Notes: generated from the letters alone by a model not told the origin. Positions 36,391-56,932 are shown, numbered from the stretch's first letter. The stretch: 63,225 nt of DNA from an uncultured virus (IMG/VR IMGVR_UViG_3300005530_000001) (IMGVR_UViG_3300005530_000001), one strand, 5' to 3'. Numbers and translations are program-made.

Positions 36391-37104
36391 GTGGGCATCA
36401 AGAACGGCAAGGCCGCGCAGCACGTACAGTCGACGTTCGGCCCCTACCTCATGGTCCACCGCTACGAGGACCAGGCGCATATCCGCGACGTCATCGCAGC
36501 CTTCCGGCCGATGGTGGCCGTCGAACTGGGCACCGCGCACGGCGGGTTCGCCGCGATGCTGGCCCACACGCTCGGCCAGTGGGGCGGGCGGGTGCTGAGC
36601 CTGGACATCAAGCAGGACGCCGGGATCTGCGCGGCACTCGAACGCGACTACGGCAATCTCACGCTGATCGAGGCCGACGTCCTGACGGAGCCCCACGAGT
36701 TGGTGGTGGCCGCGCTCAGCCAGCCGCGCGCGCTGCTCTACACCGACAACGGCCACAAGCAGCGCGAGTTGGAACTCTACGCCCCCGACCTGCCCGAGCC
36801 CGCGCTGGTCGGCACGCACGACTACGGCACCGAGGTGGACGAGGACTGGGCCGAGCCGTTCATGGCGGCCCACCACTACCGGCCCTACCAGCATGAACGG
36901 TTCGCCGCACTCGCGAGCGACTCGTACTGGGACAGCCTGACGCGCTTCTGGCTCCGGACCCGGAGCCCCGACACGCTCACCTGGTGCATGCAGTGCCAGA
37001 CGGGCGCGCTCGCGGTGGGCCAGCCGCTCTACTGTCAGGGCCAGCACGGCGCCTGCAGCGCCTGCCTCACGCGCCTGGGGCCCGTCTGCGAGGCGTGCCG
37101 ATGA
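36391..37104 (+). CDS. Class I SAM-dependent methyltransferase with C-terminal Cys-rich tail (paralog of 32519-33079)
   Basis: VELGTAHGG, LSLDI, LYTDNG, GTHD, TRFW; CxxC tail. Confidence 0.75.
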   Translation: MGIKNGKAAQHVQSTFGPYLMVHRYEDQAHIRDVIAAFRPMVAVELGTAHGGFAAMLAHTLGQWGGRVLSLDIKQDAGICAALERDYGNLTLIEADVLTEPHELVVAALSQPRALLYTDNGHKQRELELYAPDLPEPALVGTHDYGTEVDEDWAEPFMAAHHYRPYQHERFAALASDSYWDSLTRFWLRTRSPDTLTWCMQCQTGALAVGQPLYCQGQHGACSACLTRLGPVCEACR

Positions 37105-37643
37105 TCGCGCCCATGGAGGTGCCGATCGCGCCGAAGTACGCGGCGCCCACGGCGCGGACGCCCGGGCGCTACGAGGGGCTCGTGCACTTCGCCGCCGCGC
37201 TGACGTGGGAGTTCGGGCCGTCGCTGGCCACCTGGACCGTGCTCGACGTGGGGGGCGCGGATGGCTGGCTCGGCGAGATGCTCCGGACCCGCGGGTATGC
37301 GTGGGTCGATCCGCGGGCGACCGGGCGCGGCCTCGTCGGGCTGGGCGAGGCGCTGCCGATCTCCGACGCGGCGGTCGACCTGGTGGTGAGCAAGCAGACG
37401 CTGCCGCACTTCACCGATCCGGTCCAGGCCTGCCGCGAGATGTGCCGGGTGGCCCGGCACGCCGTGGTCATTCGGCAGGACTGGGGCTATCGCGACACCG
37501 CGGGCGGGTATCTGCCCATCGGCTGGCCCGGACATAGTCGATCCCAGATCGACCGCCCCGCCGATATACTGGACGCACTCAGCGTGCCGGGCTGGGCCGC
37601 GGCGTACGACGATCTCGACTTCATCGCAAGGAGAACGCTGTGA
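37101..37643 (+). CDS. SAM-dependent methyltransferase (type 11-like)
   Basis: VLDVGGADG, GEALPISDAAVDLV, LPHFTDP...REMCRV. Confidence 0.85.
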   Translation: MIAPMEVPIAPKYAAPTARTPGRYEGLVHFAAALTWEFGPSLATWTVLDVGGADGWLGEMLRTRGYAWVDPRATGRGLVGLGEALPISDAAVDLVVSKQTLPHFTDPVQACREMCRVARHAVVIRQDWGYRDTAGGYLPIGWPGHSRSQIDRPADILDALSVPGWAAAYDDLDFIARRTL

Positions 37644-38407
37644 CGACTGACCCGACGCTCCTGGTCGCGATCTACGGCGACTACGGTCCCTGGTTCGGCC
37701 CCTGGTTCGAGAGCGCGCTGGCCACGGGCCACCGCCGGTTCATCATCGTCAGCGATGGCGCCCACGAGGACACCGCGCAGCGGCTGGTCACGGCCGCCTT
37801 CGAGGGCAGCCGCGCGGACCTGAGCCGGGTGGACGACGACGCCGACTACACCGCGATGATCCAGGACCCGCGCCTGAAGCCCTACGCCTATCTGGCCGCC
37901 TGGCGCCGGGCCTTCCGCCTGCTGCCGCCCGGCGCACCGTTCGTGGCCTGCCACGTCGACACGATCCTGCAGCGCAACCTGGCCGCGGCCTGGCTGGAGG
38001 CGCGCCCGAAGCCCTTCGGGCTGGCGCTGCCCGCGGTGCGCCACGGCACCCGCTGGGTCTTCGAGCCGATCTTTCTCTGCGGCACGGCGGCGCCGGTCGT
38101 GCAGGGCGAGTTGTCGAACTTGCTGCGCGAGACCGTGCGGCTGTCCGGCAGCGCCGATCGCGAGCGGATGATGCAGGTGTACGGCTCGTTCACGGCGGGC
38201 GCCGCGGCCCTGCTCGCGAGCCGCATGCAGGAGGGTGGCGGCACCATCGTCGGACAGTTGCCCGCCACCTGGTGTAGCCGCCTCGATCCCCAGGCCGCGG
38301 TGGTCCACTTCGCGGGCCAGCCGCCCGATCCGACGACGGTGCTGGGGCAGCGCTGGGCGACGCTGGGGGACGCCTACCGGGCGCGCACCGAGGTCGTGCG
38401 GGCGTGA
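37640..38407 (+). CDS. GT-A-like nucleotide-sugar transferase (divergent)
   Basis: HVDTILQRNL (DxD variant) and C-terminal VVHFAG. Confidence 0.55.
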   Translation: MTTDPTLLVAIYGDYGPWFGPWFESALATGHRRFIIVSDGAHEDTAQRLVTAAFEGSRADLSRVDDDADYTAMIQDPRLKPYAYLAAWRRAFRLLPPGAPFVACHVDTILQRNLAAAWLEARPKPFGLALPAVRHGTRWVFEPIFLCGTAAPVVQGELSNLLRETVRLSGSADRERMMQVYGSFTAGAAALLASRMQEGGGTIVGQLPATWCSRLDPQAAVVHFAGQPPDPTTVLGQRWATLGDAYRARTEVVRA

Positions 38408-38844
38408 AGGCGCGGCTCCCGCGGCGCCGCAAGAAGTACCGCGTGCCCGGCACGCTGCGTCCGCGCGCGCTGGCCGAGCACATCGAGGAGGTCACGGGCG
38501 GCTTCCGCATCGTCAGCCACCGCACGGGGAAGAGCCTGGGGACCTACAAGACGCGCGGCGAGGCCGCGCGGGCGCTGGCGCGCATGCGGCGCTTCTCGGA
38601 GGCGGGCGTCGAGGCCCACGGCGACTGCCGCTACATCACCATCGGCGGGCGGCGCACCTGCATGACGGGCGGCCACAACCACACCGCGCTCCTCCAGGCT
38701 GGGCAGAAGCGGATGCCCTACTACGGGCTGGCCCGGCCCGGTCGGCGGCGGCGCCGCGCCTTCCCCGCCGACGTGGGGACGGCGGCGATCGGGACCGCGA
38801 CGAACATGGCGAGCGCGACCGCGCAGGCGACCGGCCACACCTGA
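38404..38844 (+). CDS. Small protein carrying one Cys-hairpin tag; in frame with the downstream polyprotein
   Basis: VEAHGDCRYITIGGRRTCM; separated from the 38869 ORF by a single in-frame TGA. Confidence 0.6.
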   Translation: MKARLPRRRKKYRVPGTLRPRALAEHIEEVTGGFRIVSHRTGKSLGTYKTRGEAARALARMRRFSEAGVEAHGDCRYITIGGRRTCMTGGHNHTALLQAGQKRMPYYGLARPGRRRRRAFPADVGTAAIGTATNMASATAQATGHT

Positions 38845-38868
38845 CACCACGCCGCCGAGGCCCAGCAG

Positions 38869-40851
38869 GTGCTGGGCGAGGGCGCGGTGAGCCCGTGTCG
38901 GGCCGTCTCGCTCGGCGGGCGCACGGTCTGCCTCGCGCATCTGCAGGAGTTCGCCTACGAGGCCGACTGCCGGTGGATCACCAAGAACGGCCACCGCATC
39001 TGCATCTCGCCGGGCCACGGCAACCATGCCTCCGCGCTGGGCACGGTCGACCCGGTGAGCGGCAAGCCGATCCTGCAGGTGAGCAACGACAAGGCCGTGC
39101 TCCTGGATCGCGCCCACAAGGCCGAGCCGGTGCTGGCGGGGCTGCTCAAGGAACTGACCCGGGAGAGTGGCGGGCAGGTGGTCGGCGTGCGCTCCAAGGC
39201 CGACGGCCCGCGGCTCGAACGCAAGCTCGCCAATCGCCCGGCCGCCGCGGTCTCCGATTATCTGGGCGGGCGCGTGGCGTTTCAGTCGCCCGAGGAACTG
39301 GAGAAGTTCAAGGCGCTGCTCTCGCCGCCCAAGTACCAGGTGATCGCGGACGAGAACTTCCTGAACGCGCCGAAGATCGGCTACCGCGCCGAGCATCTCC
39401 AGGTGCTGCTCCCGGGCGGGATCTCCGCCGAGATCCAGCTAGTCCCAGCCCCGATCGCGACCGTGCAGGACAAGGCGCACGCCGCCTACGAGGTGCTCGG
39501 GGAGAAGACGGCGAGTGAGGCCGACGTGCGCGCCGCGATTGCGCGCAGCGAGCAGATCTTCAACGAGTCGTGGCAGGCCGATCCGGCCTGGTCGAAGCGA
39601 ACGCTGCGGGAAGCTCAGGAGGCGACGCCGAGCCGCTTCAACGTCTCGGGCCCGGCGGGAGGGGCGACGAACACGTCACGGAGCACGAGGGAGTCGGTCG
39701 GGTCGGGGCCCCAGCCGTCCGGCCCCCACACCTCGATGACCGCGAGCCCGTCACGCGCGACGACGCGCGCTACGGTGCCATCCAGAATGCTGGGCGGGCA
39801 CATGACGTTACCAGGCATGGGGACACCACATACCCCAAGTATAGCAGGCGCGCTGGCCGAGGCGCTCCATCCCGGCGAGGTCTGCCGCTGGGTCACCATC
39901 GGCGGGCGAGCGGTCTGCATCCAGGGCCCCGCGCGCGAGGCGGCCCGGGCCCAGGACGTGGAGATCACGCCCGACAATATCCAGCAGTTCGCCGGGAGCC
40001 TGCGCCTCACGGCGGCCGACGTGCCTGACACCTGGACGATCTTCGACCGAGCCCAGTTCGATGCCTTGGGCGACCGCGGCATGCTCCTCCCCCTGGCCAA
40101 GGTGGTGAGTACCAAGGACGAACTCACCGATCCGAAGTTCCTGGCCGGGCAGAAGCCGGACCCGCGGGCGACGGTCCTGGCGCGCTTTGCGGATGCCGCG
40201 GCGGGCACGCTCGCGAAGCGGGCCCCCATCACCGTGGAGCCGCGCGACGGGCGCTACTACGTCAAGGACGGCAACGCCACCGTGCAGGTGCTCATGCTGG
40301 CGGGGCGGAGGCTCGTGCCTGCGCAGATCTTGCAGCCCGGGACCCAGCAGGAGGCCGCCGACGACTGCCACTGGGTCACCATCGGGGGCCGTCGCATCTG
40401 CATCACGGGCGGGCACAGTCACCCCGGCCGGGCGTCGGCCCCACCCTCCCCGCGGCCGGGCGCGCACGAGTCGACCCTGGTCGACCGCCTCAAGACTCCG
40501 GACGGGGGCTTTACCTACAACGCCACCGACAACAGCGAGCCCAGCCGGGGCTTCGCGGTGAGCCCCTACCCCGACCGCTCCAAGGTGTTCGCTGCCGCCA
40601 GCCTCTCGGAAGACGACCTGACGGGCTACATCGTCAAGAACTGGGACCTGCTGCAGCAGCCGGGGCACCACCTCGGCGCCTGGCACGATCCGAAGACCGG
40701 CAAGATCTTCCTCGACATCTCGGTAGTGAAGAACTCCGCCAAGGCGGCCAAGGCGCTGGCGCTCAAGCGCGACCAGATCGCCTACTTCGACCTGGGCAAG
40801 GGGGTCTCGGTTGACGTGAACCGGCAAGCCAAATCGGGGCAGGCCCCTTGA
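38869..40851 (+). CDS. Multi-effector polyprotein: RelA/SpoT synthetase-like + ParB-like + SAM-lyase-like domains, each preceded by the tag
   Basis: RSK...SDYLGGR...GYRAEH...AEIQ (SAS motifs); PITV...YYVKDGN; GGFT...GAWHD...FLDIS...DQIAYFD; four tags. Confidence 0.75.
   Translation: MLGEGAVSPCRAVSLGGRTVCLAHLQEFAYEADCRWITKNGHRICISPGHGNHASALGTVDPVSGKPILQVSNDKAVLLDRAHKAEPVLAGLLKELTRESGGQVVGVRSKADGPRLERKLANRPAAAVSDYLGGRVAFQSPEELEKFKALLSPPKYQVIADENFLNAPKIGYRAEHLQVLLPGGISAEIQLVPAPIATVQDKAHAAYEVLGEKTASEADVRAAIARSEQIFNESWQADPAWSKRTLREAQEATPSRFNVSGPAGGATNTSRSTRESVGSGPQPSGPHTSMTASPSRATTRATVPSRMLGGHMTLPGMGTPHTPSIAGALAEALHPGEVCRWVTIGGRAVCIQGPAREAARAQDVEITPDNIQQFAGSLRLTAADVPDTWTIFDRAQFDALGDRGMLLPLAKVVSTKDELTDPKFLAGQKPDPRATVLARFADAAAGTLAKRAPITVEPRDGRYYVKDGNATVQVLMLAGRRLVPAQILQPGTQQEAADDCHWVTIGGRRICITGGHSHPGRASAPPSPRPGAHESTLVDRLKTPDGGFTYNATDNSEPSRGFAVSPYPDRSKVFAAASLSEDDLTGYIVKNWDLLQQPGHHLGAWHDPKTGKIFLDISVVKNSAKAAKALALKRDQIAYFDLGKGVSVDVNRQAKSGQAP
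39615..39818 (-). CDS. Nested antisense gene (67 aa), candidate antitoxin of the RelA/SpoT domain
   Basis: MPGNVMCPPSILDGTVARVVARDGLAVIEVWGPDGWGPDPTDSLVLRDVFVAPPAGPETLKRLGVAS is globular-looking while the + frame here is an S/T/P/G-rich shadow; has its own promoter motif. Confidence 0.6.
   Translation of the reverse strand: MPGNVMCPPSILDGTVARVVARDGLAVIEVWGPDGWGPDPTDSLVLRDVFVAPPAGPETLKRLGVAS
39838..39846 (-). promoter_or_regulatory. Extended -10 promoter for the nested antisense gene
   Basis: Reverse complement TGCTATACT (TGnTAtAcT) about 20 nt upstream of ATG 39818. Confidence 0.6.
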
Positions 40852-40860
40852 CATTGACTG

Positions 40861-40874
40861 TGCTATCCTGGAGG
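40861..40874 (+). promoter_or_regulatory. Extended -10 plus RBS for a small downstream gene
   Basis: TGCTATCCT followed immediately by GGAGG. Confidence 0.45.
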
Positions 40875-40878
40875 CACT

Positions 40879-41025
40879 ATGGCCGAGAAGCTGAAGCTCG
40901 TGATCGTGAAGCCGACCGCGGAAGGCGTCGCCACGCTCCTGCGCAAGCTCACCGGCAAGGAGCCGGACCTGGCGAAGATCCGCGAAGGGCTCAAGCCGAT
41001 CGCGGACACGGAGCGGCCCGCCTAG
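40879..41025 (+). CDS. 48-aa protein (not in ORF track), candidate immunity protein
   Basis: MAEKLKLVIVKPTAEGVATLLRKLTGKEPDLAKIREGLKPIADTERPA; GGAGG RBS. Confidence 0.65.
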   Translation: MAEKLKLVIVKPTAEGVATLLRKLTGKEPDLAKIREGLKPIADTERPA

Positions 41026-41053
41026 CTGCCCCACGCGTGGCGCCGGGGGCGGC

Positions 41054-41604
41054 ATGATCAGCCTGCCCGGCGCCATCCCCCTCACGCAGTCGCCCGACCT
41101 GGAGTTCCGTTTCGGGCGGGACGTGATCGCCAAGCTCGACAGCGTCACCCGTCCGGCCACCGGCCGCTCCTGGTGCGGCATTCGTGTGGTGGTCGATGAG
41201 TGCATGCCGCCCGAGGTCTGGCGGCTGTTCGCGGGCACCCGCATGGTCGCGACCAACGAGTGTCGCTCGACGCACGGGGGCGCCGGGTACGCGGCGGGCA
41301 GTGAGATCGAGGTCTACGAAGGCGAGCGGTTCGTGCGCTGCGGGGGCTGCGGCACGCGGGTGCCCTACGTGGCGGGGCGCGGGCTGTGAGCGAGGGAGCG
41401 CCACTGGAGGCGCCGATCCATCTCCGGCGCGAAGACATCGTCACGCTGGAGCAGGTGCACGCCCTCGTGGGCGATGGGCCCCCGGACGACTGGGAGGCGC
41501 GCGTCCTCGGCGCGGCCAGTCTTGATCCGCGGCGGTATCGCCTGGAGCGGCTCCACGCGCTCTGCGCGTTCCGCATCGTGCGGCGCACGGCGACGACCCC
41601 GTGA
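41054..41604 (+). CDS. Two hypothetical proteins (41054-41389; 41386-41604)
   Basis: Coupled ORFs. Confidence 0.5.
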
Positions 41605-42524: not shown

Positions 42525-42539
42525 AAAGGGAGATTCTCC

Positions 42540-48036: not shown

Positions 48037-49947
48037 ATGGCCAAGAAGCGGAGCAGTCGAGCGGCGGCCCAGCCCAGCGAGGCGGCCCTCCGCCGGGAAC
48101 TGCAGCGCGCCGAACTGGAGTTGTCGCTCACGGAGGCCAAGTACACCGCGGGCCTCATGCAGCAGTTGATGGGCGCCGAGCAGCGCCTCTCCGAGGCGCA
48201 GATGGTCATGGCCGAGCCCGAGGATCGGGGCTGGGACCCGATCTCTTCCGGCAGCAGCCTGAGCCCGAGCAAGCCCATGCTGGGCGAGAGCCGTGATAGC
48301 CAGACCCTCCGGCGGCAGATGTATCGCTTCTGGCGCTACCACGCCCACGGACGCGGCATCCTGCGCAACTTCGTGCGCTTCATCATCGGCACCGGCTTCA
48401 GCCTCGACTTCGATGACATCGACCGCGGCAACTGGACCGACAGCAAGAAGACCGCGGTCAAGATCACCACCAAGGATGACGATCCGGTCCTGGCCAATCT
48501 GATCTGGAGCGACTTCGTCAAGCGCAACGTCTTCAAGCAGCGAGCGAAGGAGATCATCCTCCGCGTCTTCCGCGACGGCGAGATGTTCCTGCGGAAGTTC
48601 GAGCGCGCGGGGCGGATCACCGTGCGCTTCGTGGAGCCGGAGCGCGTCAGCAACGGCATGCAGACCAACCTCGTGGGTACGGTCCAGGCCGGAGATCTGG
48701 AGGATGACAGCCAGGTCGGCGAACCCACGCGCGTCATGCAGGGGATCGAGTTCCTGCAGGACGACATCGAGACCGTGGTGGCCTACCACACCCAGGTCAT
48801 GGTGCCGGGGCAGGGGACGGTGCTGAAGCAGGAGCGCATCCCCGCCAAGGACATGATCCACGTCAAAGCGCTCTGCGACATGAACGACCTGCGCGGCATC
48901 CCCATGCTGGAGGTCGTGGCCAAGAAGCTCGTGAACTACGACCAGTGGGAAGAGTACCGGCTGATCCTCAACAAGATGCGCACCGCGGTGGCGCTCGTGC
49001 GCAAGGTCACGGGCACCTCCAGTCAGGCCGAGGCCATCATCGCCAACCGCATGAGCCCGCGCCAGCAGCCCCAGCGCCTGGAGCCCGTCACCGGCTCGGG
49101 CCGTCGCGAGGCCATGTTCCGCCCCGGCACCACGCTGACCCCGAGCCCGGGGGTCGAGTACGACTTCATCAGCCCGAACCTCCAGGCCCGCGATGCGGCG
49201 GAGGACGGGCGACGCTTTCTCATGTCCATCGCCGCGGGCGTGGGCCTGCCCGAGATGCTGGTCACGGGGGATTGGTCCAACGGCAACTTCGCCAGCGCGG
49301 TGACCGCCCAGACCCCCGCGGTGCGCGAGTGGGAGGACTGGCAGGAGTTCTTCGAGCCGTGCTTCCAGAAGGTCTACGAGTGGGTGATCGAGGCCGCGGT
49401 GGCGGGCCTGGGCGCGCCCGAGGACATGAGCCGCGAGGTCACCATCCAGTGGCCGCCGCTCATCGCCAAGGACGCCTTCCGCGAGACCGAGCGCCTCATG
49501 AACCTCTGGGCCTCCGGGGTGTTGAGCAAGCAGACGTGGTCGGCGCAGGAGGACCTCAACTTCGATGACGAGCAGGAGAACCTCCACGACGAAGCGGTGA
49601 TGGAGGCCGAGAACCCGGTGCCCGTGCACCAGGTCGACGTGGCGACGCTCCCGACCCGGCCGAAGGAAGGGCAGAACGCGGGGCCGTTGCCTAGCCCGAA
49701 GACCGGCAAGAATCCCTACGTGGCCGACATCCGCAGCACGATCGCTACCGCGACCGAAGCCAAGGACGCCTTCCGCGAGAGCCTGGCCCTGCTGGAGGCC
49801 GATCTGGACGGCGTTGCGGACCCCGCGTTGCGGGGCAGCCTGGAGCGCTACATGGCCACCGCCAACCGGGTGCTCGCCTTCACGGGGCGCCCAGGGAGTA
49901 CGCATGCGCCACGTCCGGCGCACCGTCGGGCGCGCGCGCGACGTTAA
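48037..49947 (+). CDS. Portal protein
   Basis: Follows terL; RDGEMF, VRFVEPE, RGIPML, AGVGLPE...GDWSNGNFASA. Confidence 0.9.
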   Translation: MAKKRSSRAAAQPSEAALRRELQRAELELSLTEAKYTAGLMQQLMGAEQRLSEAQMVMAEPEDRGWDPISSGSSLSPSKPMLGESRDSQTLRRQMYRFWRYHAHGRGILRNFVRFIIGTGFSLDFDDIDRGNWTDSKKTAVKITTKDDDPVLANLIWSDFVKRNVFKQRAKEIILRVFRDGEMFLRKFERAGRITVRFVEPERVSNGMQTNLVGTVQAGDLEDDSQVGEPTRVMQGIEFLQDDIETVVAYHTQVMVPGQGTVLKQERIPAKDMIHVKALCDMNDLRGIPMLEVVAKKLVNYDQWEEYRLILNKMRTAVALVRKVTGTSSQAEAIIANRMSPRQQPQRLEPVTGSGRREAMFRPGTTLTPSPGVEYDFISPNLQARDAAEDGRRFLMSIAAGVGLPEMLVTGDWSNGNFASAVTAQTPAVREWEDWQEFFEPCFQKVYEWVIEAAVAGLGAPEDMSREVTIQWPPLIAKDAFRETERLMNLWASGVLSKQTWSAQEDLNFDDEQENLHDEAVMEAENPVPVHQVDVATLPTRPKEGQNAGPLPSPKTGKNPYVADIRSTIATATEAKDAFRESLALLEADLDGVADPALRGSLERYMATANRVLAFTGRPGSTHAPRPAHRRARARR

Positions 49948-52900
49948 CACCCACCTCCAGGATCACTTCCTGCGCCGCGCGATGCTGCAGCGGCGCTGGG
50001 AGAATGCCGCCTGCCGGGACGTGGACACCGTCCTCAAGCAGACGACCACCGCGATCACGAGCCTCGTGCACAACGCTGGGATCTTCCCCCCGCGCAAGCT
50101 CACGCCCGCAGAGCGGCCGGGCTTCGCCTTCCTCGATCCGGTCCGCCACGACAAGCTCAAGCTCCTGCTGAGCCAGATCGCGATGACGCTGGCGCACTAC
50201 GTGCGCGGCAGCGTGGAATCGCTCCGCGGAGACCTGCGCTCCCTGGCCCAGGTCGAACTGCACCTGGTGCCGAAGGAGATGCAGGACATCCTCGATCACC
50301 ACGTCAAGAAGCACGGGCTCATGGAGGCCGCAGCCGACGACTGTCATTGGATTACCAAGAACGGTCACCGCATCTGTATTTCCGACGGGCATGCTGAGCA
50401 CGGCCACGTCGAGATAGACCCCACGCTCGCCCCGATTGCGGGGCGCATCCAGCGCGTGGTGGGTCGCCTGAACCAGAAGTATGGGCCGCTCGTTACAGCC
50501 GTGAAGTCCAGTGGCCTGACGGGAGACGTCCTCGCCCACAAAAGCAAAGACACCATCTATCTACGCTCCGATAAGGCCCTGGACACGGAGTTCTGGCGGC
50601 AGCACGAAAAGGAGTGGGCCGGACTCCGGATCGATCCCTCGCTGGAGGGTGTTCTCACCCACGAGTACGGACATGTGTTGTTCACGCGTGCCCTGAACAC
50701 TGATCCCGAACGGTACAATCAGGAGATCGCCCCGCTGGCCGCTGACACCGCCGTGGCCACCTCCGCGTATGGCCAGGAGCACTCGGTTGAAAACGAGGCC
50801 GAGGCCTTCGCGGCGATCGAAGCGGGCCGTCACGCATGGGGCCTGGAGACCGAGATGACCGGGCAGGCCATGGCGCGGGCCCGGCAGATGGTGTCGGCGG
50901 CCATGGCTATCCTGAAAGGCCAGACTCAACAGGAGGCCCTGGACGACCCCACGGCCGACGACTTCGACCCCGACCTCTACTTCACGTCCGGCCGCAAGGC
51001 GCTGATCCCGCCCGCCCCCACCCCGCTCCCCAAGATCCTGCGCGGCAGCCCGAACAGCTTCCTGACGGAACTGCTGGGCACCCCGCTCGGCGGGGCCTTC
51101 TACCAGACCTCCTTCGCCGATCTGGGCGCGAGCCTCGTGAGCGGCATCCGCAACATCCTCCTGGGCGGGCTCATGAGCGGCGAGGGCGTCGCCCCCGTGG
51201 CTCGACGGCTCCAGGGCCTGCTCGGGGGCGCCCGCTACAAGTCCGAGCGCATCGTGCGGAGCGAGTTCGGGCGCGTGGCCAACCAGGCCGCGCTCACGTC
51301 CTTCGCCCAGAACAGCGACGTCATCCAGGCCGTGCAGTGGATCTCGACGCTCGATGATGCGACGTGCTTGCAGTGCGGGGAACTGGACGCGCGCACCTGG
51401 GAGAGCTTCGCCGCCGCCCCCGTGCCCGTGGCCGACACGCATCCGAACTGCCGCTGCCGCCTGATCCCGGTGGTCAAGGGCGCCGAGGATCTGGGGCTGC
51501 CCGAGGGCACGCGCGCGAGCTTCAACGGGCAGGTGCCCGCGAGCCTCGACTACGAGACCTGGTTCGATCAGCAGGACGACGCCTTCCAGCGGGAGGTCCT
51601 GGGCCCGACCCGCTATCGGCTCTACGCCTCCGGGCAGGCCGACCTCTCCGACTTCGCCACCGCCAGCGGCGTGCGGCGCGTGCGCGATGTCCTGGCGGAT
51701 CTCGCCGAAGCCAACGTGGGGGAGTGTCACTGGATCACGAAGCACGGGCGGCCCATCTGCATCACCGGCAGCCACCTGCATCCGACCCCGCCACCGAGTG
51801 GCCCGATCCAGGCCACGCTGCCCGGCCTGCGGGACTGGACGCCCCCGACCCCCGAAGATCTGGCGCGCCAGGAATGGCTCGACGCGCAGCGGGCGGCCGA
51901 TCTGGACGCGATGCACGCGCTCTGGGCCACGCTCGACGGCACCGAGGTCGAGGTCCCGGGCCCCGAGACCTGGGCCGCGCTGACCGAGGCCCAGCAGGAG
52001 CAGGTCCAGAACGCGTGGGAAGACGCGCACGTCGAGGACTACATCGACCAGGCCAAGGAGGACTGGATCAACGACACGGGCGCGGCGGACGTCACGCAGG
52101 CGATGAACGACGACACCGATCTGCAGCGCCGCGTCGTGGAGAAGGCGCTCACCAAGGCGCTCGGCCCGGAACGCGCCGCCGCCCTGCTCGACACCGAGGA
52201 CGTCGCGGCGAACCTCCGCAGTCTGGCCGGAGGATCACTCAGCATCCGGTCGGTGGCGGGCAACGACGCGGCGACCCAGGAGGAAGCGCGCGTGATGTAC
52301 CTGGAGGCGGGCCGCCTCTGGGAGGACGAATACAACGAGCGCATCAGCGATCTGGAGGTGCCGGAAGATGTGACCCAGGGTGCCTACGAGGCGGCCTCGG
52401 AGGCCTTCGCGGGGTTGGACGACGAGTCGAAGGACGAACTCGCCAAAGCGATGTTCGGCGGCGCGCAACGGGTCGACCTCACGGCACCGGACCGTTGGCG
52501 GGTGACGCTCGATCCGCACGCGTCCGCCGAGGCGCGCGATGAATACCTTGCGACGGGCCGGATTGCGAACGCGCTGGTCGCGGCCCGAGCCGATCAGTTG
52601 TGGCGCGCCCGCTACCCGGAGGAGTCGACGCCCGATTTCCAGAACCTCGCGTCCGGCTTCTGGCGGGACTGGAAGAAGGACTCCTTCCATGAGGGCACCC
52701 TCGACATGCACCAGGCGCTGGTGCAGGAGTTGAGCGCCAACACGCGTGGGCAGGAATACGCCACCGCGGAGCGCAAGGGCATCGAGACGCTCACGCCCAG
52801 CCACGCCGACCGGGTCTACACGCGCGCCCTCTGGGATACGACCCAGTTCCTGCTCACGAAGGCAGGGGTGACCGAGATGGATCTCTACCGCTCGATCATC

Positions 52901-55900
52901 CTGCCCGCCGAGGTCGCGCACCGCGAGCCCACGCTGCCGATCACGCCTGCGGCAGCCTCCGGGTCGGGCTCGGCGGTGGATCTGCGGATTCCTCCCGGAG
53001 GCTACGTCAAATATCCCTCGCTCGCGCTGCAGCAGAATCCGGCGCAGTCGTTCACCTTCTCTGATCAGGTCGCGAACACCTGGGACGGCGTGGGCTCCTC
53101 GCCGCCGGGTGGCCAGCGGGTCGTGCTCCGCGCCAAGGTGCCGAGCACCGCGATCTGGTCGCTGCCGCTCTACGGCAAGAACATCCAGCACGAGCAGGAG
53201 GCGGTGGTGCTGGGCACGCCGTGGAAGAAGTGGGACGCCTGGATGGGCTTCGCGCCCCCGCCCGCCGTGCTGGCCCTGGAGGCGCTGGTGGAGGCGGGCC
53301 CCATGCAGCAGGACGGCACGCCCGCCCGGCCGGAGCAGTTCGTGATCGACCTGGCCAACCCCGCGTTGACCGGCGGCCAGCACTGGCTCTGGCACGGGCG
53401 GTTCGTAGACACGCAGCAGGAAGCGGGCACCGACTGCCGCTGGATCACCAAACACGGCCGCCGCATCTGCATCGCCCCGGGCCACGCCCACACCGACCCC
53501 GGCGCGACGCAGGCGCTGACGGGCCACCTCCCGGCCGCGGCCCGGTTCCTCACCGATCAGGGCTGGCTGCACGTCTCGGCCTCCCCGACGGAGGAGGGGC
53601 AACACCAGTCCATCGTCTACCGCGAACCGCAGAGCGGCGACCGGATGACCGTCTTCGCCAACGGCGACTGGGTGCACGTGTTCGCCGACGGCACGGCGAC
53701 CGAGGGCCACCGCCTCGCCGGGCTCAAGCTCCACCTCTTCGCGCGGGACTTCCTGGGGCCAACGCTCCGCGATCCCTCCGCCCAACTGGAAGCGGCCGAC
53801 GCCGAGGCCTGTCACTGGATCACCAAGAATGGCCGTCGCATCTGCATCACGGGCGGCCATACCCACGCTGCGCCCGTGCGGTTCGCGGCCTCGCTCGGGA
53901 TCGAGCGCAAGAACATGCCCCAGATCCGGGCGAAGGACATGGGGGAGTTCCTGGCCTGGGTTTCGGAGCAGGGCGTGACGATCACGCGCGAGACCGTCCC
54001 GGCCTCCAGCCTGCGCCCCGCCCAGGCGCACTACAACCCCGAGCAGGTCGCGCAGATGCAGCGCGAGAACATGACCAAGCCGCTCGTGGTCTCCCGCGAT
54101 CACTACATCCTCGACGGCACGCATCGCTGGGTGCGGTTCACCCAGGACGATCCCACGCAGGCCGTCACCGTGCTGCGGATCGATCGGCCCGCGACCGAGG
54201 CCATCGACCTCATGAAGCGGTTCCCGAAAGCGGAGGTGCAGGACATCACCGACATCGGGGCGCCCCGCGGCCGAGCGCTCGCGCCTGCCCTGGCGGAAGC
54301 CGCGGATGCCGACTGCCGGTGGATCACCAAGAACGGCCGCCCGATCTGCATCCGCCAGGGGCACGGCGAGCACGAGCGGATCGGTACCGTCGCGAGTCTG
54401 CCGAAGCGGACCTCCGTTCCCGTCACCGGGCTCGTCCAGATCTCCAAGGGCTCAGAGTCCAAGGTCTACGACGGGCGCGTCAAGGCCGGGCGCCCCGTCA
54501 TCGTCTATCGCGGAGTCGGCACCCTGAAAGAGATTGATGATGCCGTGGCCGCGGGCGCATGGGAATCGCAAGGCGACTGGGTCACCCAGTGGGAGGGCCG
54601 CACCCAGGTCGCGACGGGCCCGCTCGATCTCGCGTTGACGGCGCAGTACCCCTTCCTCGTCCAGGTGGACATCCAGGGCTTGCCGGTCCGAGCCGTGCAT
54701 TTCACCACCGGCCCGAACCGGGTGAACGTGAAGTCCGGAACCGTCTCCGGCCTGGATCACGCGATGGGCCTGGGCGTGACGGCGCCCATCCCGCTCGATC
54801 GCATCAAGAACATCTGGAGCGTCGAACGTCCCTCGCTGAAGCTCACGAGCGTCAAGTCGCTCTTCCCTACGCTCGCGCTCCAGGAGGCGGGCGAGGACTG
54901 CCACTGGATCACGTACCAGGGCCGTCGCATCTGCATCACGGGCGGGCACGCCCATGCGGGGGCGTCGTCCACCGTCGTCACCACCACCGAGGAAGCCGCG
55001 CTCAGCCCGAAGGATCGGGCGAAGTTCGAGAAGGGCCTGGCCGCCTACGGGCTCACGCGCGAGGGCATGCGGGCTGAGATCCTCGCCAAGATCTCGAATG
55101 CCGACGGCACGGTCAACGTGCAACTCCTGGCGGAAGCGCGGCACTGGTATCCCGACGCGCACGCCTTCGCCACCGATCTGATGGGCAAGGCTCCCATCAC
55201 CCTGGAACAGGCGGTGGGCGTGATCGCGGCGCTCTCGCCCCAGAATCCGTGGGAGTACAAGACCCAGTACGGCCTGGCGGGCAACAAGGTGGACGCGGCT
55301 TCCGTCGTCCGCTACTTCGCCGACCACACCGAAGATCACCAGACGCCCGCGGAACTAGCCGCGGGCGTGAAGGCGCTCTACGACCCCAACGGCCACAATG
55401 CCGACCGGCACCTGGGTCCCGGCATGCTCTCGCCCACGTCGAGCGTCGAGAAGGCGTTCTCGATCCTGCGCGACGGTTCGGCCGCCAACCTCGCCGAGCA
55501 ACTGGGCACGCTCAAGACCGCGAGCTTCTACAACAACATCCTCGCGCCCGGCCAGACGCGCGCGGTGACCATCGACGGCCACATGGCCAAGGCCATCGCC
55601 TACGCGGCGCTGGCGCAGGGCCGGGCCATGCCCAAGGACGGCCCGGGCCCGAAGGGCGAGCGCCTGGGCAGCGTCACCTCGATGATGGACGCGAAGGTCT
55701 GGGGCTCCATCGGTCACGTGCTGGTGGCGGATCAGGTCCGGCAGGTCGCCGACACCCTGCACGAGAGCCCCGACACGATTCAGGCCGCCTACTGGCTCGC
55801 CGTCCAGCCGAACAACCCGTTCAAGGGGACGTACGAAGCATGGCGCCCCGGCGCGTTCGGCTGGCGGCGCGACCAGACGGTCAGTGAGGCAGACCAGGAC

Positions 55901-56932
55901 CCGCCGAAGCTGCTGGCGCTGCGTCCCGCCATGCCGTGGGGCGATGGCCTCCCGCTGGAGCCGGAGGCGATCGAGGCGCGGCTGGGTCTCCGGACGCTCG
56001 GGGAGGCTGGCGACGCCTGTCACTGGATCACCTACCGCGGACGGCGCATCTGCATCGGGGACGCGGCGCACCAGCGGCACGGGGACATCGAGCCCAAGAT
56101 CTACATGCGGCCCGACGACCTGGAGCCGGTCGATAGCTGGGGCGGTGAACAGAAGTGGAAGGACAAGAAGCATGGCGATCTGCTGAGCGCTCCCATCTCG
56201 AAGGCTGACCTACCGCCGACCCTGTACCACACCACCGTGGCCGCCCCCGCTATCGAGAAGGCGGGCCTACTGCTCGCGCAATCGGATGGCGGCGGCATGG
56301 GGGGCGGTGCGGGGCGTCCCGGCGTGAGCTTCACCACCAGCCAGGCTGACGCCGAGTTGATGCTGAAGGAACTGGGTCGCGAGATCGACCTGGCTCACCG
56401 CGCGCCCGACATGTCCGGCGCTATCACCCGCGGCCTCCTGGAGACCTGGGCGCGCGAGGATGAGCAGCGCATGGGCCTGCCCGCGGGCACCTTCCAGCGG
56501 GCCGTCGACTATGCCATGGGCAACTACGAGGCGAACGTGAAGCCGGTCACGCACGTCTTCGATATGGAGAAGTACGGCGGCTATGCCGACGACGTGCTGC
56601 GGCCTCAGCCCGAACTGGACAAGGGGCTGCGCAGCCTCGGCCACGACGCCCACAGTGCCTACATGCAGGCGCGCGAGACCGACGCGATCAAGGCGCTCGG
56701 GGCCGACTACCAGGCGTTTCGTGTCGAGGATCGCTATGCGCCCGTCAAGAATCCGCTGATCTTCGGCGACGCGGAAGCCTTCAAGGCGCTCGACAAGCAG
56801 CATCTCGGTATCGTCACGGTTCCGACGGCCGCGATTCCCGATGGGGCCCTGATCCGCAAGGGCAGCGATGATTTCCTCCACGAGGTCCGCGTCCACGCTG
56901 ACGTGCCTCTTCACGTACAGGAGCCCGCATGA
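49904..56932 (+). CDS. Giant MuF (head morphogenesis) polyprotein, about 2342 aa, with seven tagged effector modules
   Basis: GGAG RBS and ATG 49904; MuF motifs RIVRSE...WISTLDDATCLQC...HPNCRC; HEYGH zincin; LYR/QSFT/EQE ART; MPQI..LDGTHRW ParB; WY..AALSPQ..KTASFYNNI..TIDGH; LYHTT..VSFTT..HEVRV. Confidence 0.9.
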   Translation: MRHVRRTVGRARDVNTHLQDHFLRRAMLQRRWENAACRDVDTVLKQTTTAITSLVHNAGIFPPRKLTPAERPGFAFLDPVRHDKLKLLLSQIAMTLAHYVRGSVESLRGDLRSLAQVELHLVPKEMQDILDHHVKKHGLMEAAADDCHWITKNGHRICISDGHAEHGHVEIDPTLAPIAGRIQRVVGRLNQKYGPLVTAVKSSGLTGDVLAHKSKDTIYLRSDKALDTEFWRQHEKEWAGLRIDPSLEGVLTHEYGHVLFTRALNTDPERYNQEIAPLAADTAVATSAYGQEHSVENEAEAFAAIEAGRHAWGLETEMTGQAMARARQMVSAAMAILKGQTQQEALDDPTADDFDPDLYFTSGRKALIPPAPTPLPKILRGSPNSFLTELLGTPLGGAFYQTSFADLGASLVSGIRNILLGGLMSGEGVAPVARRLQGLLGGARYKSERIVRSEFGRVANQAALTSFAQNSDVIQAVQWISTLDDATCLQCGELDARTWESFAAAPVPVADTHPNCRCRLIPVVKGAEDLGLPEGTRASFNGQVPASLDYETWFDQQDDAFQREVLGPTRYRLYASGQADLSDFATASGVRRVRDVLADLAEANVGECHWITKHGRPICITGSHLHPTPPPSGPIQATLPGLRDWTPPTPEDLARQEWLDAQRAADLDAMHALWATLDGTEVEVPGPETWAALTEAQQEQVQNAWEDAHVEDYIDQAKEDWINDTGAADVTQAMNDDTDLQRRVVEKALTKALGPERAAALLDTEDVAANLRSLAGGSLSIRSVAGNDAATQEEARVMYLEAGRLWEDEYNERISDLEVPEDVTQGAYEAASEAFAGLDDESKDELAKAMFGGAQRVDLTAPDRWRVTLDPHASAEARDEYLATGRIANALVAARADQLWRARYPEESTPDFQNLASGFWRDWKKDSFHEGTLDMHQALVQELSANTRGQEYATAERKGIETLTPSHADRVYTRALWDTTQFLLTKAGVTEMDLYRSIILPAEVAHREPTLPITPAAASGSGSAVDLRIPPGGYVKYPSLALQQNPAQSFTFSDQVANTWDGVGSSPPGGQRVVLRAKVPSTAIWSLPLYGKNIQHEQEAVVLGTPWKKWDAWMGFAPPPAVLALEALVEAGPMQQDGTPARPEQFVIDLANPALTGGQHWLWHGRFVDTQQEAGTDCRWITKHGRRICIAPGHAHTDPGATQALTGHLPAAARFLTDQGWLHVSASPTEEGQHQSIVYREPQSGDRMTVFANGDWVHVFADGTATEGHRLAGLKLHLFARDFLGPTLRDPSAQLEAADAEACHWITKNGRRICITGGHTHAAPVRFAASLGIERKNMPQIRAKDMGEFLAWVSEQGVTITRETVPASSLRPAQAHYNPEQVAQMQRENMTKPLVVSRDHYILDGTHRWVRFTQDDPTQAVTVLRIDRPATEAIDLMKRFPKAEVQDITDIGAPRGRALAPALAEAADADCRWITKNGRPICIRQGHGEHERIGTVASLPKRTSVPVTGLVQISKGSESKVYDGRVKAGRPVIVYRGVGTLKEIDDAVAAGAWESQGDWVTQWEGRTQVATGPLDLALTAQYPFLVQVDIQGLPVRAVHFTTGPNRVNVKSGTVSGLDHAMGLGVTAPIPLDRIKNIWSVERPSLKLTSVKSLFPTLALQEAGEDCHWITYQGRRICITGGHAHAGASSTVVTTTEEAALSPKDRAKFEKGLAAYGLTREGMRAEILAKISNADGTVNVQLLAEARHWYPDAHAFATDLMGKAPITLEQAVGVIAALSPQNPWEYKTQYGLAGNKVDAASVVRYFADHTEDHQTPAELAAGVKALYDPNGHNADRHLGPGMLSPTSSVEKAFSILRDGSAANLAEQLGTLKTASFYNNILAPGQTRAVTIDGHMAKAIAYAALAQGRAMPKDGPGPKGERLGSVTSMMDAKVWGSIGHVLVADQVRQVADTLHESPDTIQAAYWLAVQPNNPFKGTYEAWRPGAFGWRRDQTVSEADQDPPKLLALRPAMPWGDGLPLEPEAIEARLGLRTLGEAGDACHWITYRGRRICIGDAAHQRHGDIEPKIYMRPDDLEPVDSWGGEQKWKDKKHGDLLSAPISKADLPPTLYHTTVAAPAIEKAGLLLAQSDGGGMGGGAGRPGVSFTTSQADAELMLKELGREIDLAHRAPDMSGAITRGLLETWAREDEQRMGLPAGTFQRAVDYAMGNYEANVKPVTHVFDMEKYGGYADDVLRPQPELDKGLRSLGHDAHSAYMQARETDAIKALGADYQAFRVEDRYAPVKNPLIFGDAEAFKALDKQHLGIVTVPTAAIPDGALIRKGSDDFLHEVRVHADVPLHVQEPA

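What the first reader, a model, noticed from the sequence alone, without database searches (positions are those of the whole stretch)
38404..40851. Second, MuF-less polyprotein with the same tags: RelA/SpoT synthetase, ParB-like and SAM-lyase-like cargo
Seen: five more tag copies about 10 kb upstream of MuF, outside the head operon, again mostly after Glu-Ala (VEA, YEA, LAEA, QQEA). They precede a domain with small alarmone synthetase motifs (RSK, DYLGGR, GYRAEH, AEIQ), a ParB-like domain (DGN), and a GGFT...GAWHD...LDIS...DQIAYFD domain. Known: toxSAS and MuF-borne (p)ppApp synthetases are toxic, and phage SAM lyases counter SAM-dependent defence systems. Inference: because this locus has no MuF domain, the tag itself may be the capsid-targeting signal, like the T4 internal-protein CTS. 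The segment HLQEFAYEA before the first full tag loosely resembles T4 CTS TYQEFIAE, possibly by chance. The SAM-lyase call is tentative.
Basis: partly seen in the sequence, partly recalled or inferred. Interest (0 to 1): 0.85.

Follow-up and report, generated by a model that had tools for sequence, protein, structure and literature searches.

The report
Tagged phage cargo polyprotein without MuF
An uncultured large phage encodes, away from its head genes, a three-enzyme protein whose modules each begin with the same small two-cysteine hairpin that also punctuates its giant MuF head protein, so it is probably cargo injected with the DNA, though packaging and cutting are unproven.

Summary
Five tag copies lie at 38626, 38896 (degenerate), 38968, 39883 and 40366. 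Seven more lie in the MuF polyprotein. There were 11 core matches in six frames against 0 in 200 codon shuffles.

The region is two ORFs, not one polyprotein. ORF1 has 146 aa and ORF2 has 660 aa. They share a frame and are split by a TGA at 38842-38844.

Domain calls:
- **RelA/SpoT-type synthetase:** supported.
- **ParB/Srx-like fold:** weakly supported.
- **SAM lyase:** not supported. That domain is a widespread phage domain of unknown function with no clear solved relative.

The tag is about 30 residues: L-x-E-A, an acidic run, then C-x-W-[IV]-T-x-x-G-x-x-[IV]-C-I-x-x-G-H-x-H. Only 27 of 1.84 billion representative proteins match it. The carriers include MuF, portal-like, Zeta-toxin, zincin and ART-like proteins. 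A cysteine-free WVTI version is common in viral contigs.

My best reading (0.42) is a junction element of virion cargo: a cleavage site followed by a metal-stapled hairpin cap. Nothing shows packaging or cleavage.

The parts
38404..38844 (+). ORF1: 146-aa, very basic small protein (pI 11.7). It has an N-terminal Arg/Lys stretch, a small conserved domain (GGFRIVSHRTGKSLGTYKTRGEA), one tag and an Arg-rich tail ending ...GHT.
   Evidence: ORF list and translation. GC3 is 0.97. Five stand-alone homologues all end in T before the stop. No Pfam, PHROG, NCBIfam or PDB relative.
38608..38682 (+). Tag in ORF1: VEAHGD-CRYITIGGRRTC-MTGGHNH.
   Evidence: C75, C86, H91 and H93 are invariant in all 6 family members.
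38842..38844 (+). In-frame TGA (followed by C) that separates ORF1 from ORF2.
   Evidence: GC3 stays at 0.93 or more across it. No unusual RNA structure follows it (z -0.32).
38869..40851 (+). ORF2: 660-aa, MuF-less, three-module cargo-type protein.
   Evidence: Orthologues P0002-P0005. P0002 and P0009 start at the same position. No Pfam hit at E <= 1.
38896..38931 (+). Degenerate hairpin in the ORF2 leader: CRAVSLGGRTVC, followed by LAHLQE.
   Evidence: Conserved in P0002 and P0009. Its Cys are lost in P0003.
38941..39027 (+). Tag heading the synthetase module: LQEFAYEAD-CRWITKNGHRIC-ISPGHGNH.
   Evidence: E27, C34, W36, T38, G41, C45, H50 and H53 are invariant in 5 orthologues.
39037..39624 (+). 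RelA/SpoT-homologue (small alarmone synthetase / toxSAS-like) nucleotide pyrophosphokinase domain, residues about 57-252.
   Evidence: Foldseek PDB, PDB profile and Pfam RelA_SpoT sub-threshold hits in P0003 and P0005. R108, K110, D130, R135, G171, Y172, R173, H176, E188 and Q190 are invariant.
39625..39858 (+). Conserved Ser/Thr/Pro/Arg-rich, predicted disordered segment.
   Evidence: pLDDT is below 50. It is conserved in P0002-P0004. In P0005 it sits before the synthetase domain, not after it.
39853..39921 (+). Tag heading the ParB-like module: LAEALHPGEV-CRWVTIGGRAVC-I. This copy has no His pair.
39952..40344 (+). ParB/Srx-like domain with DGNAT in place of the usual DGxHR-type motif.
   Evidence: It is paired with the synthetase domain in L003 too.
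40345..40422 (+). Tag heading the C-terminal module: QQEAADD-CHWVTIGGRRIC-ITGGHSH.
   Evidence: Modelled as a beta-hairpin (strands 6-11 and 14-19, pLDDT 66-72).
40465..40833 (+). C-terminal domain of unknown function (phrog_17808 / phrog_3170 family). Not a demonstrable SAM lyase.
49904..56932 (+). Context: the MuF polyprotein (2342 aa). It has seven tags, an HEYGH zincin-like motif, Phage_Mu_F and DUF7178.

Best explanation
ORF1 and ORF2 are two adjacent genes of an uncultured phage known from a contig of about 125 kb. They encode proteins meant to travel in the capsid and enter the host with the DNA.

ORF2 is a polyvalent effector protein with three modules:
- a RelA/SpoT-type nucleotide pyrophosphokinase;
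- a ParB/Srx-like domain that travels with it in other lineages;
- a widespread phage domain of unknown function.

Each module starts with a junction element of about 30 residues. It has a hydrophobic-x-Glu-Ala/Asp site, an acidic run, and a beta-hairpin closed by two Cys, usually followed by two His (a probable small metal site).

The same element separates the modules of the MuF-zincin polyprotein 10 kb downstream. I infer that one protease cuts both proteins at the L-x-E site. That protease could be a head protease or the zincin in the MuF protein. The hairpin would then stay as the N-terminal cap of each released enzyme.

Shown: the tags, their placement, their distribution, the synthetase fold and the Cys pattern. 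Inferred: packaging, cleavage, metal binding and the enzyme activities.
For: **Placement.** The tag sits at every module boundary, always on the N-terminal side. The last module of ORF2 and of the MuF polyprotein is not followed by a tag.

**Module shuffling.** Modules move together with their tag. P0003 carries an extra tag+domain unit. P0005 has the modules in another arrangement. P0010 and P0013 carry, as separate tagged proteins, modules that in this window are part of the MuF polyprotein.

**Sequence upstream of the tag.** I examined 69 tags in 30 carrier proteins.
- [LIVM]-x-E-[AD] lies within 12 residues upstream in 32 of 69, against 3% of random positions in the same proteins.
- EA occurs in 46 of 69, against 11%.
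- Three or more acidic residues in the last six occur in 39 of 69, against 3%.

**Carriers.** Of 26 carriers scanned with Pfam:
- Phage_Mu_F in 4;
- Zeta_toxin in 3;
- an ATLF-type zincin in 2 (one of them below cut-off);
- RelA_SpoT fused to MuF in 1;
- PI3/PI4-kinase-like in 1;
- sub-threshold DRAT-like in 1;
- sub-threshold portal in 1;
- no family in 13.

**Cys pattern.** All 8 Cys of ORF2 and both Cys of ORF1 lie in hairpins. In the MuF ORF, 14 of 21 Cys are in tags and 4 in the MuF CxxC...CxC motif. Neighbouring non-structural genes have 1.2-3.6 Cys per 100 residues.

**His pair.** A His pair follows the second Cys in 51 of 70 tags. The Cys spacing is 10 residues in 57 tags and 11 in 13.

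**The C-terminal domain elsewhere.** It recurs inside an annotated internal virion protein of Synechococcus phage S-CBP42, weakly (E 6e-4). It also recurs in large phage proteins that carry XkdF or Zeta-toxin domains.

**A candidate protease.** An HExxH string occurs in 8 of 31 proteins examined, including the window's MuF polyprotein. One of the eight (P0009) lies inside the tag's own His pair.
Against: - No virion proteome, no cleavage data and no cultured relative exist. tblastn against 50,697 phage records found nothing for ORF2 residues 1-494.
- No prohead protease could be identified in the window by Pfam, PHROGs or PDB sequence search.
- The HEYGH region matches no peptidase family.
- ORF1/ORF2 lie among glycosyltransferase and methyltransferase genes, about 5.5 kb before the terminase, not in the head module.
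- A structured 25-residue hairpin is more than a cleavage site needs.
- In ORF1 the tag lies mid-protein.
- 19 of 70 tags lack the His pair, so a Cys2His2 site cannot be the universal feature.
- Cys-free relatives of the hairpin exist.
- The 69-70 tags come from related proteins and are not independent events.
Confidence: 0.42

Rival explanations
1. One reading: the tag itself is the capsid-targeting signal. It binds a procapsid component (scaffold, portal, MuF or inner shell), so any protein carrying it is loaded whether or not it is fused to MuF. Cleavage, if any, is secondary.
For: - The tag is the only feature ORF1, ORF2 and the MuF polyprotein share.
- Modules that are MuF-fused here are separate tagged proteins in relatives (P0010, P0013). 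A MuF-independent loading route is therefore needed if those modules are cargo.
- Stand-alone carriers such as P0024 and P0031 have the tag within 25-45 residues of the N-terminus.
Against: - Seven copies in a protein that already contains MuF would be redundant as a targeting signal.
- The tag also joins cargo to MuF, and to a region with a sub-threshold portal match, in P0028 and P0029. There, fusion alone would load the cargo.
- In T4 (recalled), the targeting sequence lies upstream of the L-x-E cut and is removed. Here the conserved hairpin lies downstream of the cut.
- No binding partner is known.
Confidence: 0.22
2. The tag is only a structural, metal- or disulfide-stabilised cap or spacer that helps unrelated domains fold independently. 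ORF2 is an ordinary cytoplasmic multi-domain enzyme made during infection. It is neither packaged nor cut.
For: - ORF2 lies outside the head module, among sugar- and methyl-transferase genes.
- A Cys-free version of the hairpin is common in viral contigs. One strict pattern gave 116 matches. Only 2 of 5 records checked had a MuF match at E <= 0.001, and only one of those was over the family cut-off.
- An earlier scan note (e1-6064301) judged a similar hairpin to be a general structural cap.
Against: - Among 1.84 billion representatives, the 27 matches are, apart from one false positive (P0027, which lacks the core), proteins with phage head, effector or no annotation.
- The strong L-x-E-[AD] and acidic bias upstream of the tag is not explained by a folding cap.
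- The cargo domains are free of Cys, which suits proteins that leave the cell.
Confidence: 0.2
3. The hairpins are small nucleic-acid-binding zinc knuckles. They tether each cargo unit, and the very basic ORF1 protein, to the packaged genome, so the proteins leave with the DNA.
For: - The hairpin tip is basic (K-N-G-R-R, I-G-G-R-R).
- ORF1 has pI 11.7, with 30 Arg+Lys in 146 residues.
- A Cys2His2 ligand set is present in 51 of 70 tags.
Against: - The element is preceded by a strongly acidic run.
- No similarity to any solved zinc finger or DNA-binding fold was found for the tag or for ORF1.
- Cys-free relatives exist.
Confidence: 0.1
4. This adds to the readings above and does not exclude them. 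The TGA-C between ORF1 and ORF2 is leaky, so a minor ORF1-ORF2 fusion is made, as with the read-through coat extension of phage Q-beta (recalled).
For: - The two ORFs share a frame.
- All 8 spacer codons end in G or C, and GC3 stays at 0.93 or more across the stop.
- ORF1 and ORF2 homologues seem to share contigs in two relatives. This is inferred only from equal contig lengths of 17,709 and 4,219.
Against: - All 6 ORF1 family members stop after the same Thr.
- P0002 and P0009 start at the same position as ORF2. A GAGG lies 8 nt before the GTG.
- No stimulatory RNA structure is present (z -0.32).
- No DNA of any relative could be obtained to test frame conservation.
Confidence: 0.08

Closest known systems
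Phage-type polyvalent proteins (Iyer, Burroughs, Anand, de Souza, Aravind 2017, PMC5512222; passages read by term search)
   Same: Several unrelated effector domains sit in one polypeptide of a phage. RelA/SpoT, ParB-like, MuF and zincin (MPTase) domains are among those the paper lists. The paper proposes delivery with the DNA and release of units by proteolysis.
   Different: ORF2 has neither MuF nor a peptidase of its own. Its modules are separated by a conserved Cys hairpin element. In that paper the terms 'linker', 'cysteine' and 'Zn-ribbon' had 0 occurrences, so I found no description of such a junction there. The paper's supplementary alignments were not seen.
T4 internal proteins and Alt, with their capsid targeting sequence cut by the gp21 prohead protease after L/I-x-E (recalled, not read here)
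   Same: A leader or junction containing hydrophobic-x-Glu precedes proteins thought to be packaged and injected. The upstream L-x-E-[AD] enrichment fits this.
   Different: Here the element repeats internally. The conserved structured part lies after the putative cut, not before it. No gp21-like protease was found.
MuF polymorphic toxins with adenosine 3'-pyrophosphokinase (Apk2) domains (PMC12226406; abstract and passages)
   Same: A toxic RelA/SpoT-family pyrophosphokinase is linked to a phage head protein. The tag carrier P0028 is a MuF-RelA_SpoT fusion.
   Different: The window's synthetase is not fused to MuF. It shows no BLASTP similarity to P0028 (E 0.7). No iapK- or aph1-like immunity gene was recognised downstream. 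The substrate is unknown.
Small alarmone synthetases and toxSAS enzymes (RelP, RelQ, CapRel, Tas1, FaRel2)
   Same: Fold match at Foldseek E 9e-6 to 1.7e-3, with TM by target 0.34-0.67. The R-x-K, D-x-x-G-x-R, G-Y-R-x-x-H and E-x-Q positions are conserved.
   Different: Sequence identity is 15-19%. There is no Pfam hit for the window protein. The motif reads EIQLVP instead of the usual EIQIRT (the latter recalled).
Phage SAM lyases (T3 gp0.3, Svi3-3)
   Same: They are of similar size and are phage-encoded. There are weak structural rows only: 6zm9_A at Z 3.0, 7ock_L at Z 2.8, and a BFVD SAM hydrolase at E 0.13.
   Different: There is no sequence relation (hhalign probability 0.3%). The scores lie in the range the tool calls uninformative.

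Membership tests
RelA/SpoT homologue (RSH) synthetase domain | Synthetase fold shared with RelP, RelQ and Rel | tested here: met
   All 35 Foldseek PDB hits at E <= 0.001 are RSH synthetases. The best is 6ewz_A at E 9.2e-6; TM by target reaches 0.67. The model has mean pLDDT 45.8 overall, but blocks of 53-85 over residues 71-200.
RelA/SpoT homologue (RSH) synthetase domain | Catalytic and nucleotide-binding motifs R-x-K, D-x-x-G-x-R, G-Y-R-x-x-H and E-x-Q (the motif list is recalled) | tested here: met
   R108, K110, D130, R135, G171-Y172-R173, H176, E188 and Q190 are invariant in 5 orthologues. The D..G.R and GYR..H stretches align with RelQ.
RelA/SpoT homologue (RSH) synthetase domain | Match to Pfam PF04607 above the gathering score | tested here: not met
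   The window protein has no hit at E <= 1. Orthologues P0003 and P0005 score 19.8 and 17.4 bits against a cut-off of 27.
RelA/SpoT homologue (RSH) synthetase domain | Pyrophosphate transfer from ATP to a nucleotide or tRNA 3'-OH | not testable with these tools
   Needs an enzyme assay.
ParB/Srx (ParB_N) superfamily | Sequence or profile similarity to ParB_N members | tested here: inconclusive
   The A5 profile against PDB gave SbnI at E 0.1-0.24 and Noc at E 0.3-0.37. These are 5 of the 6 best rows, and none is significant. Pfam gave only DUF6551 at E 0.048 in 2 of 6 members.
ParB/Srx (ParB_N) superfamily | ParB_N fold | tested here: inconclusive
   Five Atlas structural neighbour rows are ParB_N clusters, at TM by query 0.46-0.55. 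My own model of this part has pLDDT below 50.
ParB/Srx (ParB_N) superfamily | Conserved basic residues after the DG motif (DGxHR / GxxRxxA type; recalled) | tested here: not met
   The invariant sequence is D-G-N-A-T-x-Q in 6 of 6 members.
Phage SAM lyase | Sequence relation to T3 gp0.3 | tested here: not met
   hhalign of A4 (19 sequences) against T3 gp0.3 gives probability 0.3% and E 0.22 over 15 columns.
Phage SAM lyase | Shared fold | tested here: inconclusive
   The model has pLDDT 84.5. 6zm9_A scores Z 3.0 (rank 22) and 7ock_L Z 2.8 (rank 30) of 48,161 chains; the best row overall is Z 4.2. The best Foldseek PDB hit is E 0.15.
Polyvalent protein (Iyer et al. 2017) | Two or more unrelated effector-type domains in one polypeptide of a phage or conjugative element | tested here: met
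   ORF2 has three unrelated modules. The phage context is shown by terminase, portal, MuF and capsid genes.
Polyvalent protein (Iyer et al. 2017) | Delivery with the DNA (virion packaging) and proteolytic release of units | not testable with these tools
   Needs virion proteomics.
T4-type capsid targeting sequence | N-terminal leader ending in L/I-x-E that is cut by the prohead protease | tested here: inconclusive
   [LIVM]-x-E occurs upstream of 40 of 69 tags, against 14% background. No protease was identified and no cleavage data exist.
Cys2His2 metal-binding knuckle | Four conserved ligands at fixed spacing | tested here: inconclusive
   C-x10/11-C occurs in 70 of 70 tags. A His pair follows within 10 residues in 51 of 70. 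Metal binding was not tested. There is no solved relative.

The most novel reading that the evidence does not exclude
The Cys hairpin is the metal-stapled subtype of a widespread, undescribed 'WVTI hairpin' junction. That junction would act as a portable, MuF-independent handle for loading and cutting apart phage-injected enzymes. If so, any protein carrying it, wherever it is encoded in the genome, is capsid cargo, and the tag gives a sequence rule for reading the injected effector repertoire of uncultured phages.
Probability: 0.25. Interest if true: 0.85.

Novelty: new variant of a known kind. Interest (0 to 1): 0.62.

Why it matters
Phage proteins injected with the DNA act first in an infection. 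Outside a few model phages they are hard to recognise from sequence.

A short junction element shared by MuF-fused, MuF-less and probably portal-fused (sub-threshold match) multi-enzyme proteins would give a practical rule for finding such cargo in metagenomes. It would also make a question testable: how proteins that are not fused to a head protein get into the capsid.

The cargo here includes a divergent RelA/SpoT-type pyrophosphokinase that keeps company with an odd ParB-like domain, and a common phage domain with no known fold relative. Both are good targets for ordinary biochemical work.

Tried and rejected
- **SAM lyase for the C-terminal domain.** Rejected as unsupported.
- **Link between ORF2's ParB-like domain and the ParB-like module of the MuF polyprotein.** None found: hhalign probability 0.4%. 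The MuF module alone has no PDB relative.
- **Similarity of the synthetase domain to other carriers.** BLASTP against P0028 gave E 0.7 and against P0049 gave E 2.3-2.4. Pfam found no family in P0049. My impression that P0049 pairs the ParB-like domain with a synthetase in reverse order is therefore unverified.
- **Complex prediction of the synthetase domain (57-252) with the ParB-like domain (362-492).** No answer: score 0.00, controls not run. This is not evidence either way.
- **DNA of relatives, to test the in-frame stop.**
  - Genome contigs gave nothing.
  - Viral contigs returned only the same phage: L001, L004-L006.
  - Metagenome contigs returned the window's own contig (L002) and one distant, untagged relative (L003).
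- **RNA structure after the TGA.** Ordinary, z -0.32.
- **Promoter and terminator scan of 34500-46500.** No more sites than in shuffles.
- **Protease in 57270-59333.** None detected. My reading of protease-like motifs there is from memory only, so I dropped it.
- **Tag and ORF1 against PDB sequences.** Nothing found.
- **Family libraries for the tag.** Pfam, PHROGs and NCBIfam have no family for it. Nor does Pfam for its Cys-free relatives: 0 of 30 loci scanned, out of 88 distinct, were over cut-off.
- **Cultured phages.** No match for ORF2 residues 1-494 or for P0019.
- **tRNAs.** None in the window.
- **Literature.** Full-text searches for the motif or for a tag on polyvalent proteins found nothing relevant.
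- **Synthetase sub-alignment from typed pieces.** This leaves no synthetase-only profile.

Full report
**Where this is.** The window is part of a 125,294-base metagenome contig (L002, 100% identity). It has 64-73% G+C, and every gene I called reads on the + strand. It carries a terminase (best cultured relatives about 50% identical), a lambda-type portal, a giant MuF protein and a capsid protein. No cultured phage matches ORF2. The window's own assembly is not held.

**Observation.** Four are canonical, with first Cys codons at 38626, 38968, 39883 and 40366. One is a degenerate copy at 38896. Seven more copies lie in the MuF polyprotein. The core pattern occurs 11 times in six frames and 0 times in 200 codon shuffles. 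The DNA copies differ at synonymous sites, so selection acts on the peptide.

**Gene structure.** The span is not one ORF.
- A TGA at 38842-38844 ends ORF1 (146 aa). Its GTG start overlaps the previous gene's stop.
- ORF2 (660 aa) starts at a GTG 24 nt later, in the same frame, with a GAGG 8 nt upstream.
- GC3 stays at 0.93 or more through the stop.

Five homologues of ORF1 are all small proteins that end with the same Thr. P0002 and P0009 begin exactly where ORF2 begins. So I read two genes. Read-through of the TGA-C remains a minor possibility that I could not test, because no DNA of a relative was obtainable.

ORF1 and ORF2 homologues seem to share contigs in two relatives. This rests only on equal contig lengths.

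**The tag.**
- The alignment of 11 copies gives xxEAxxDC[HR]W[IV]TKxGRRICIxGGHxH. C, T, G and C are invariant.
- AlphaFold models it as a two-stranded hairpin, at pLDDT 66-72 in the better model. The same strands appear at lower confidence in the whole-protein model.
- A profile search of 1,835,955,588 representative proteins found only 27 at E <= 0.001, and 13 at E <= 1e-10. One of the 27 (P0027, an Ig-repeat protein) lacks the core and is a false positive.

Pfam results for the 26 carriers scanned:

| Pfam family | Carriers |
|---|---|
| Phage_Mu_F | 4 |
| Zeta_toxin | 3 |
| ATLF-type zincin | 2 (one below cut-off) |
| DUF7178 | 2 |
| RelA_SpoT (fused to MuF) | 1 |
| PI3/PI4-kinase-like | 1 |
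| DRAT-like (sub-threshold) | 1 |
| Portal (sub-threshold) | 1 |
| Intein (sub-threshold) | 1 |
| No family | 13 |

Across 70 tags in 30 proteins:
- The two Cys are 10 residues apart in 57 tags and 11 in 13.
- A His pair follows in 51 tags.
- Six tags have a G-x-I-x-K-G-P tail instead.

Upstream of 69 tags:
- [LIVM]-x-E-[AD] occurs in 32, against 3% background.
- EA occurs in 46, against 11% background.
- An acidic run occurs in 39, against 3% background.

These tags come from related proteins, so the counts are not independent events.

All 8 Cys of ORF2 and both Cys of ORF1 lie in the hairpins. In the MuF ORF, 14 of 21 Cys are in tags and 4 in the MuF CxxC...CxC motif. Neighbouring non-structural genes carry 1.2-3.6 Cys per 100 residues.

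**A wider family.** One strict DNA pattern for a Cys-free version (W-V-T-I-x-G-x-H-V-x-I) matched 116 stretches of IMG/VR contigs.
- My own rough estimate of the chance expectation is a few. It is not a tool result.
- 111 of 116 have no stop within 10 codons on either side.
- Most have acidic residues upstream and a G-x-x-G-x-I-x-x-G-P-like tail.
- Several contigs hold two or three copies.
- None of the 30 scanned, out of 88 distinct, matches a Pfam family above cut-off.
- In 2 of 5 records checked, a MuF match at E <= 0.001 lies in the same record as the tags. One of these is over the cut-off and sits in a 1293-aa frame.

The window's tag is therefore a two-cysteine subtype of a broader hairpin junction. 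In the broader form the Cys positions hold Gly/Asp/Glu and Leu/Phe.

**Cargo domains.**

(1) *Synthetase, residues about 57-252.*
- The PDB profile search puts RelQ/RelP-type enzymes in the top six, at E 0.012-0.38.
- Foldseek of the model gives only RelA/SpoT-family synthetases among its 35 hits at E <= 0.001. They include RelP, RelQ, CapRel and Tas1; FaRel2 follows at E 1.7e-3.
- The catalytic positions are invariant.
- Orthologues P0003 and P0005 give sub-threshold Pfam RelA_SpoT hits.
- The substrate cannot be told.

(2) *ParB-like, residues 362-492.*
- Only seven relatives are known: the five ORF2-family proteins plus P0049, and L003.
- Profile hits to SbnI and Noc are at E 0.1-0.37.
- ParB_N clusters appear among the Atlas structural neighbours.
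- The motif is DGNAT, not the usual basic motif.
- In L003 the same synthetase-ParB-like pair occurs in an 847-aa protein without tags, next to a P-loop protein. The pair therefore looks like a functional unit.

(3) *C-terminal domain, residues 533-655.*
- The model is confident (pLDDT 84.5).
- It has no significant PDB match: Foldseek best E 0.15, VIA best Z 4.2.
- BFVD gives 22 hits at E <= 0.001. None has a functional name beyond the XkdF and Zeta-toxin domains noted next. Most are about 104-270 aa and six are 433-1102 aa, including proteins named for XkdF and Zeta-toxin domains.
- It belongs to phrog_17808 (15 of 19 members) and phrog_3170 (6 of 19).
- It weakly matches part of an internal virion protein of phage S-CBP42.
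- SAM lyase is not supported.

About half of the 17 stand-alone homologues of domain (3) start with a different short leader, of the type H-P-R-x-P-x-G-x-P-x-G-G-x-F. P0005 has such a leader where the window has the Cys tag. So different leaders are interchangeable in front of the same cargo.

**Mechanism.** The data fit a modular grammar: [L-x-E-A + acidic run + hairpin]-domain-linker, repeated. Whole units move between MuF-fused and MuF-less proteins (P0003, P0005, P0010, P0013).
- I favour (0.42) a junction that is cut at the L-x-E site and leaves the hairpin as an N-terminal cap.
- An HEYGH zincin-like motif sits right after the first tag of the MuF polyprotein. Other carriers hold zincin motifs or domains.
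- The protease is unidentified.

**Comparison and novelty.** This is a phage-type polyvalent protein in the sense of Iyer et al. 2017. I found no description of the junction element there by term search or in five other library searches. That paper's supplementary alignments were not seen.

Earlier notes of this scan report similar Cys hairpin tags in other uncultured phages. They agree with this reading but are not independent evidence.

What this locus adds:
- a MuF-less carrier encoded outside the head module;
- evidence that modules are exchanged between MuF-fused and free carriers;
- the Cys-free cargo composition;
- the link to a common Cys-free hairpin.

I rate it a new variant of a known kind.

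Noticed in passing
38842-38868: ORF1 and ORF2 are in the same frame, separated by a single TGA followed by C. All 8 spacer codons end in G or C. Read-through to an ORF1-ORF2 fusion is conceivable but unsupported.
   Followed up: partly
39625-39858: A conserved Ser/Thr/Pro/Arg-rich, predicted disordered segment follows the synthetase domain. In P0005 the homologous segment sits before that domain instead. L003 has a similar low-complexity stretch between its two domains. Its function is unknown.
   Followed up: no
35128-45697: The cargo genes sit inside a run of sugar- and methyl-transferase-like genes. Pfam hits are Glycos_transf_2 (below cut-off), a CmcI/Methyltransf_24-like protein and Glyco_trans_1_2. 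Several ORFs there have no family.
   Followed up: no
40879-41025 and 41054-41389: Two small ORFs with coding-type GC3 (0.96 and 0.92) lie directly downstream of ORF2. The second has 5 Cys in 111 residues. They have no family. They are candidates for an inhibitor of the synthetase, which is speculative.
   Followed up: partly
50660-50674: An HEYGH zincin-like motif lies just after the first tag of the MuF polyprotein. An E-x-E-A-x-F-A stretch lies downstream of it. No peptidase family matches it.
   Followed up: partly
57270-59333: A 687-aa ORF lies between the MuF polyprotein and the capsid gene. It matches only PHROGs of unknown function and has a coiled-coil-like C-terminal third. By position it may be a scaffold or protease, but nothing confirms this.
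   Followed up: partly
49904-56932 and 38869-40851: The cargo modules are almost free of cysteine outside the tags and the MuF CxxC...CxC motif. ORF2 has 0 such Cys. The MuF ORF has 3, two of them before the likely start.
   Followed up: yes
L009-L124 (IMG/VR contigs): A Cys-free hairpin motif, WVTI[ND]GxHV[LF]I, has acidic residues before it and a Gly-rich tail after it. It occurs in at least 116 places in viral contigs, sometimes 2-3 times per contig, and has no Pfam family.
   Followed up: partly
P0007 (relative of the MuF polyprotein): A 2434-aa relative of the MuF polyprotein has a sub-threshold Intein_splicing match (30 bits, cut-off 35.8) just after its MuF domain.
   Followed up: no
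L003:9338-11881: A lower-GC metagenome contig encodes the same synthetase-ParB-like pair without any tag. It lies next to a P-loop (RepA/AAA_25-like by eye) protein, so the pair also occurs outside tagged phage cargo.
   Followed up: partly
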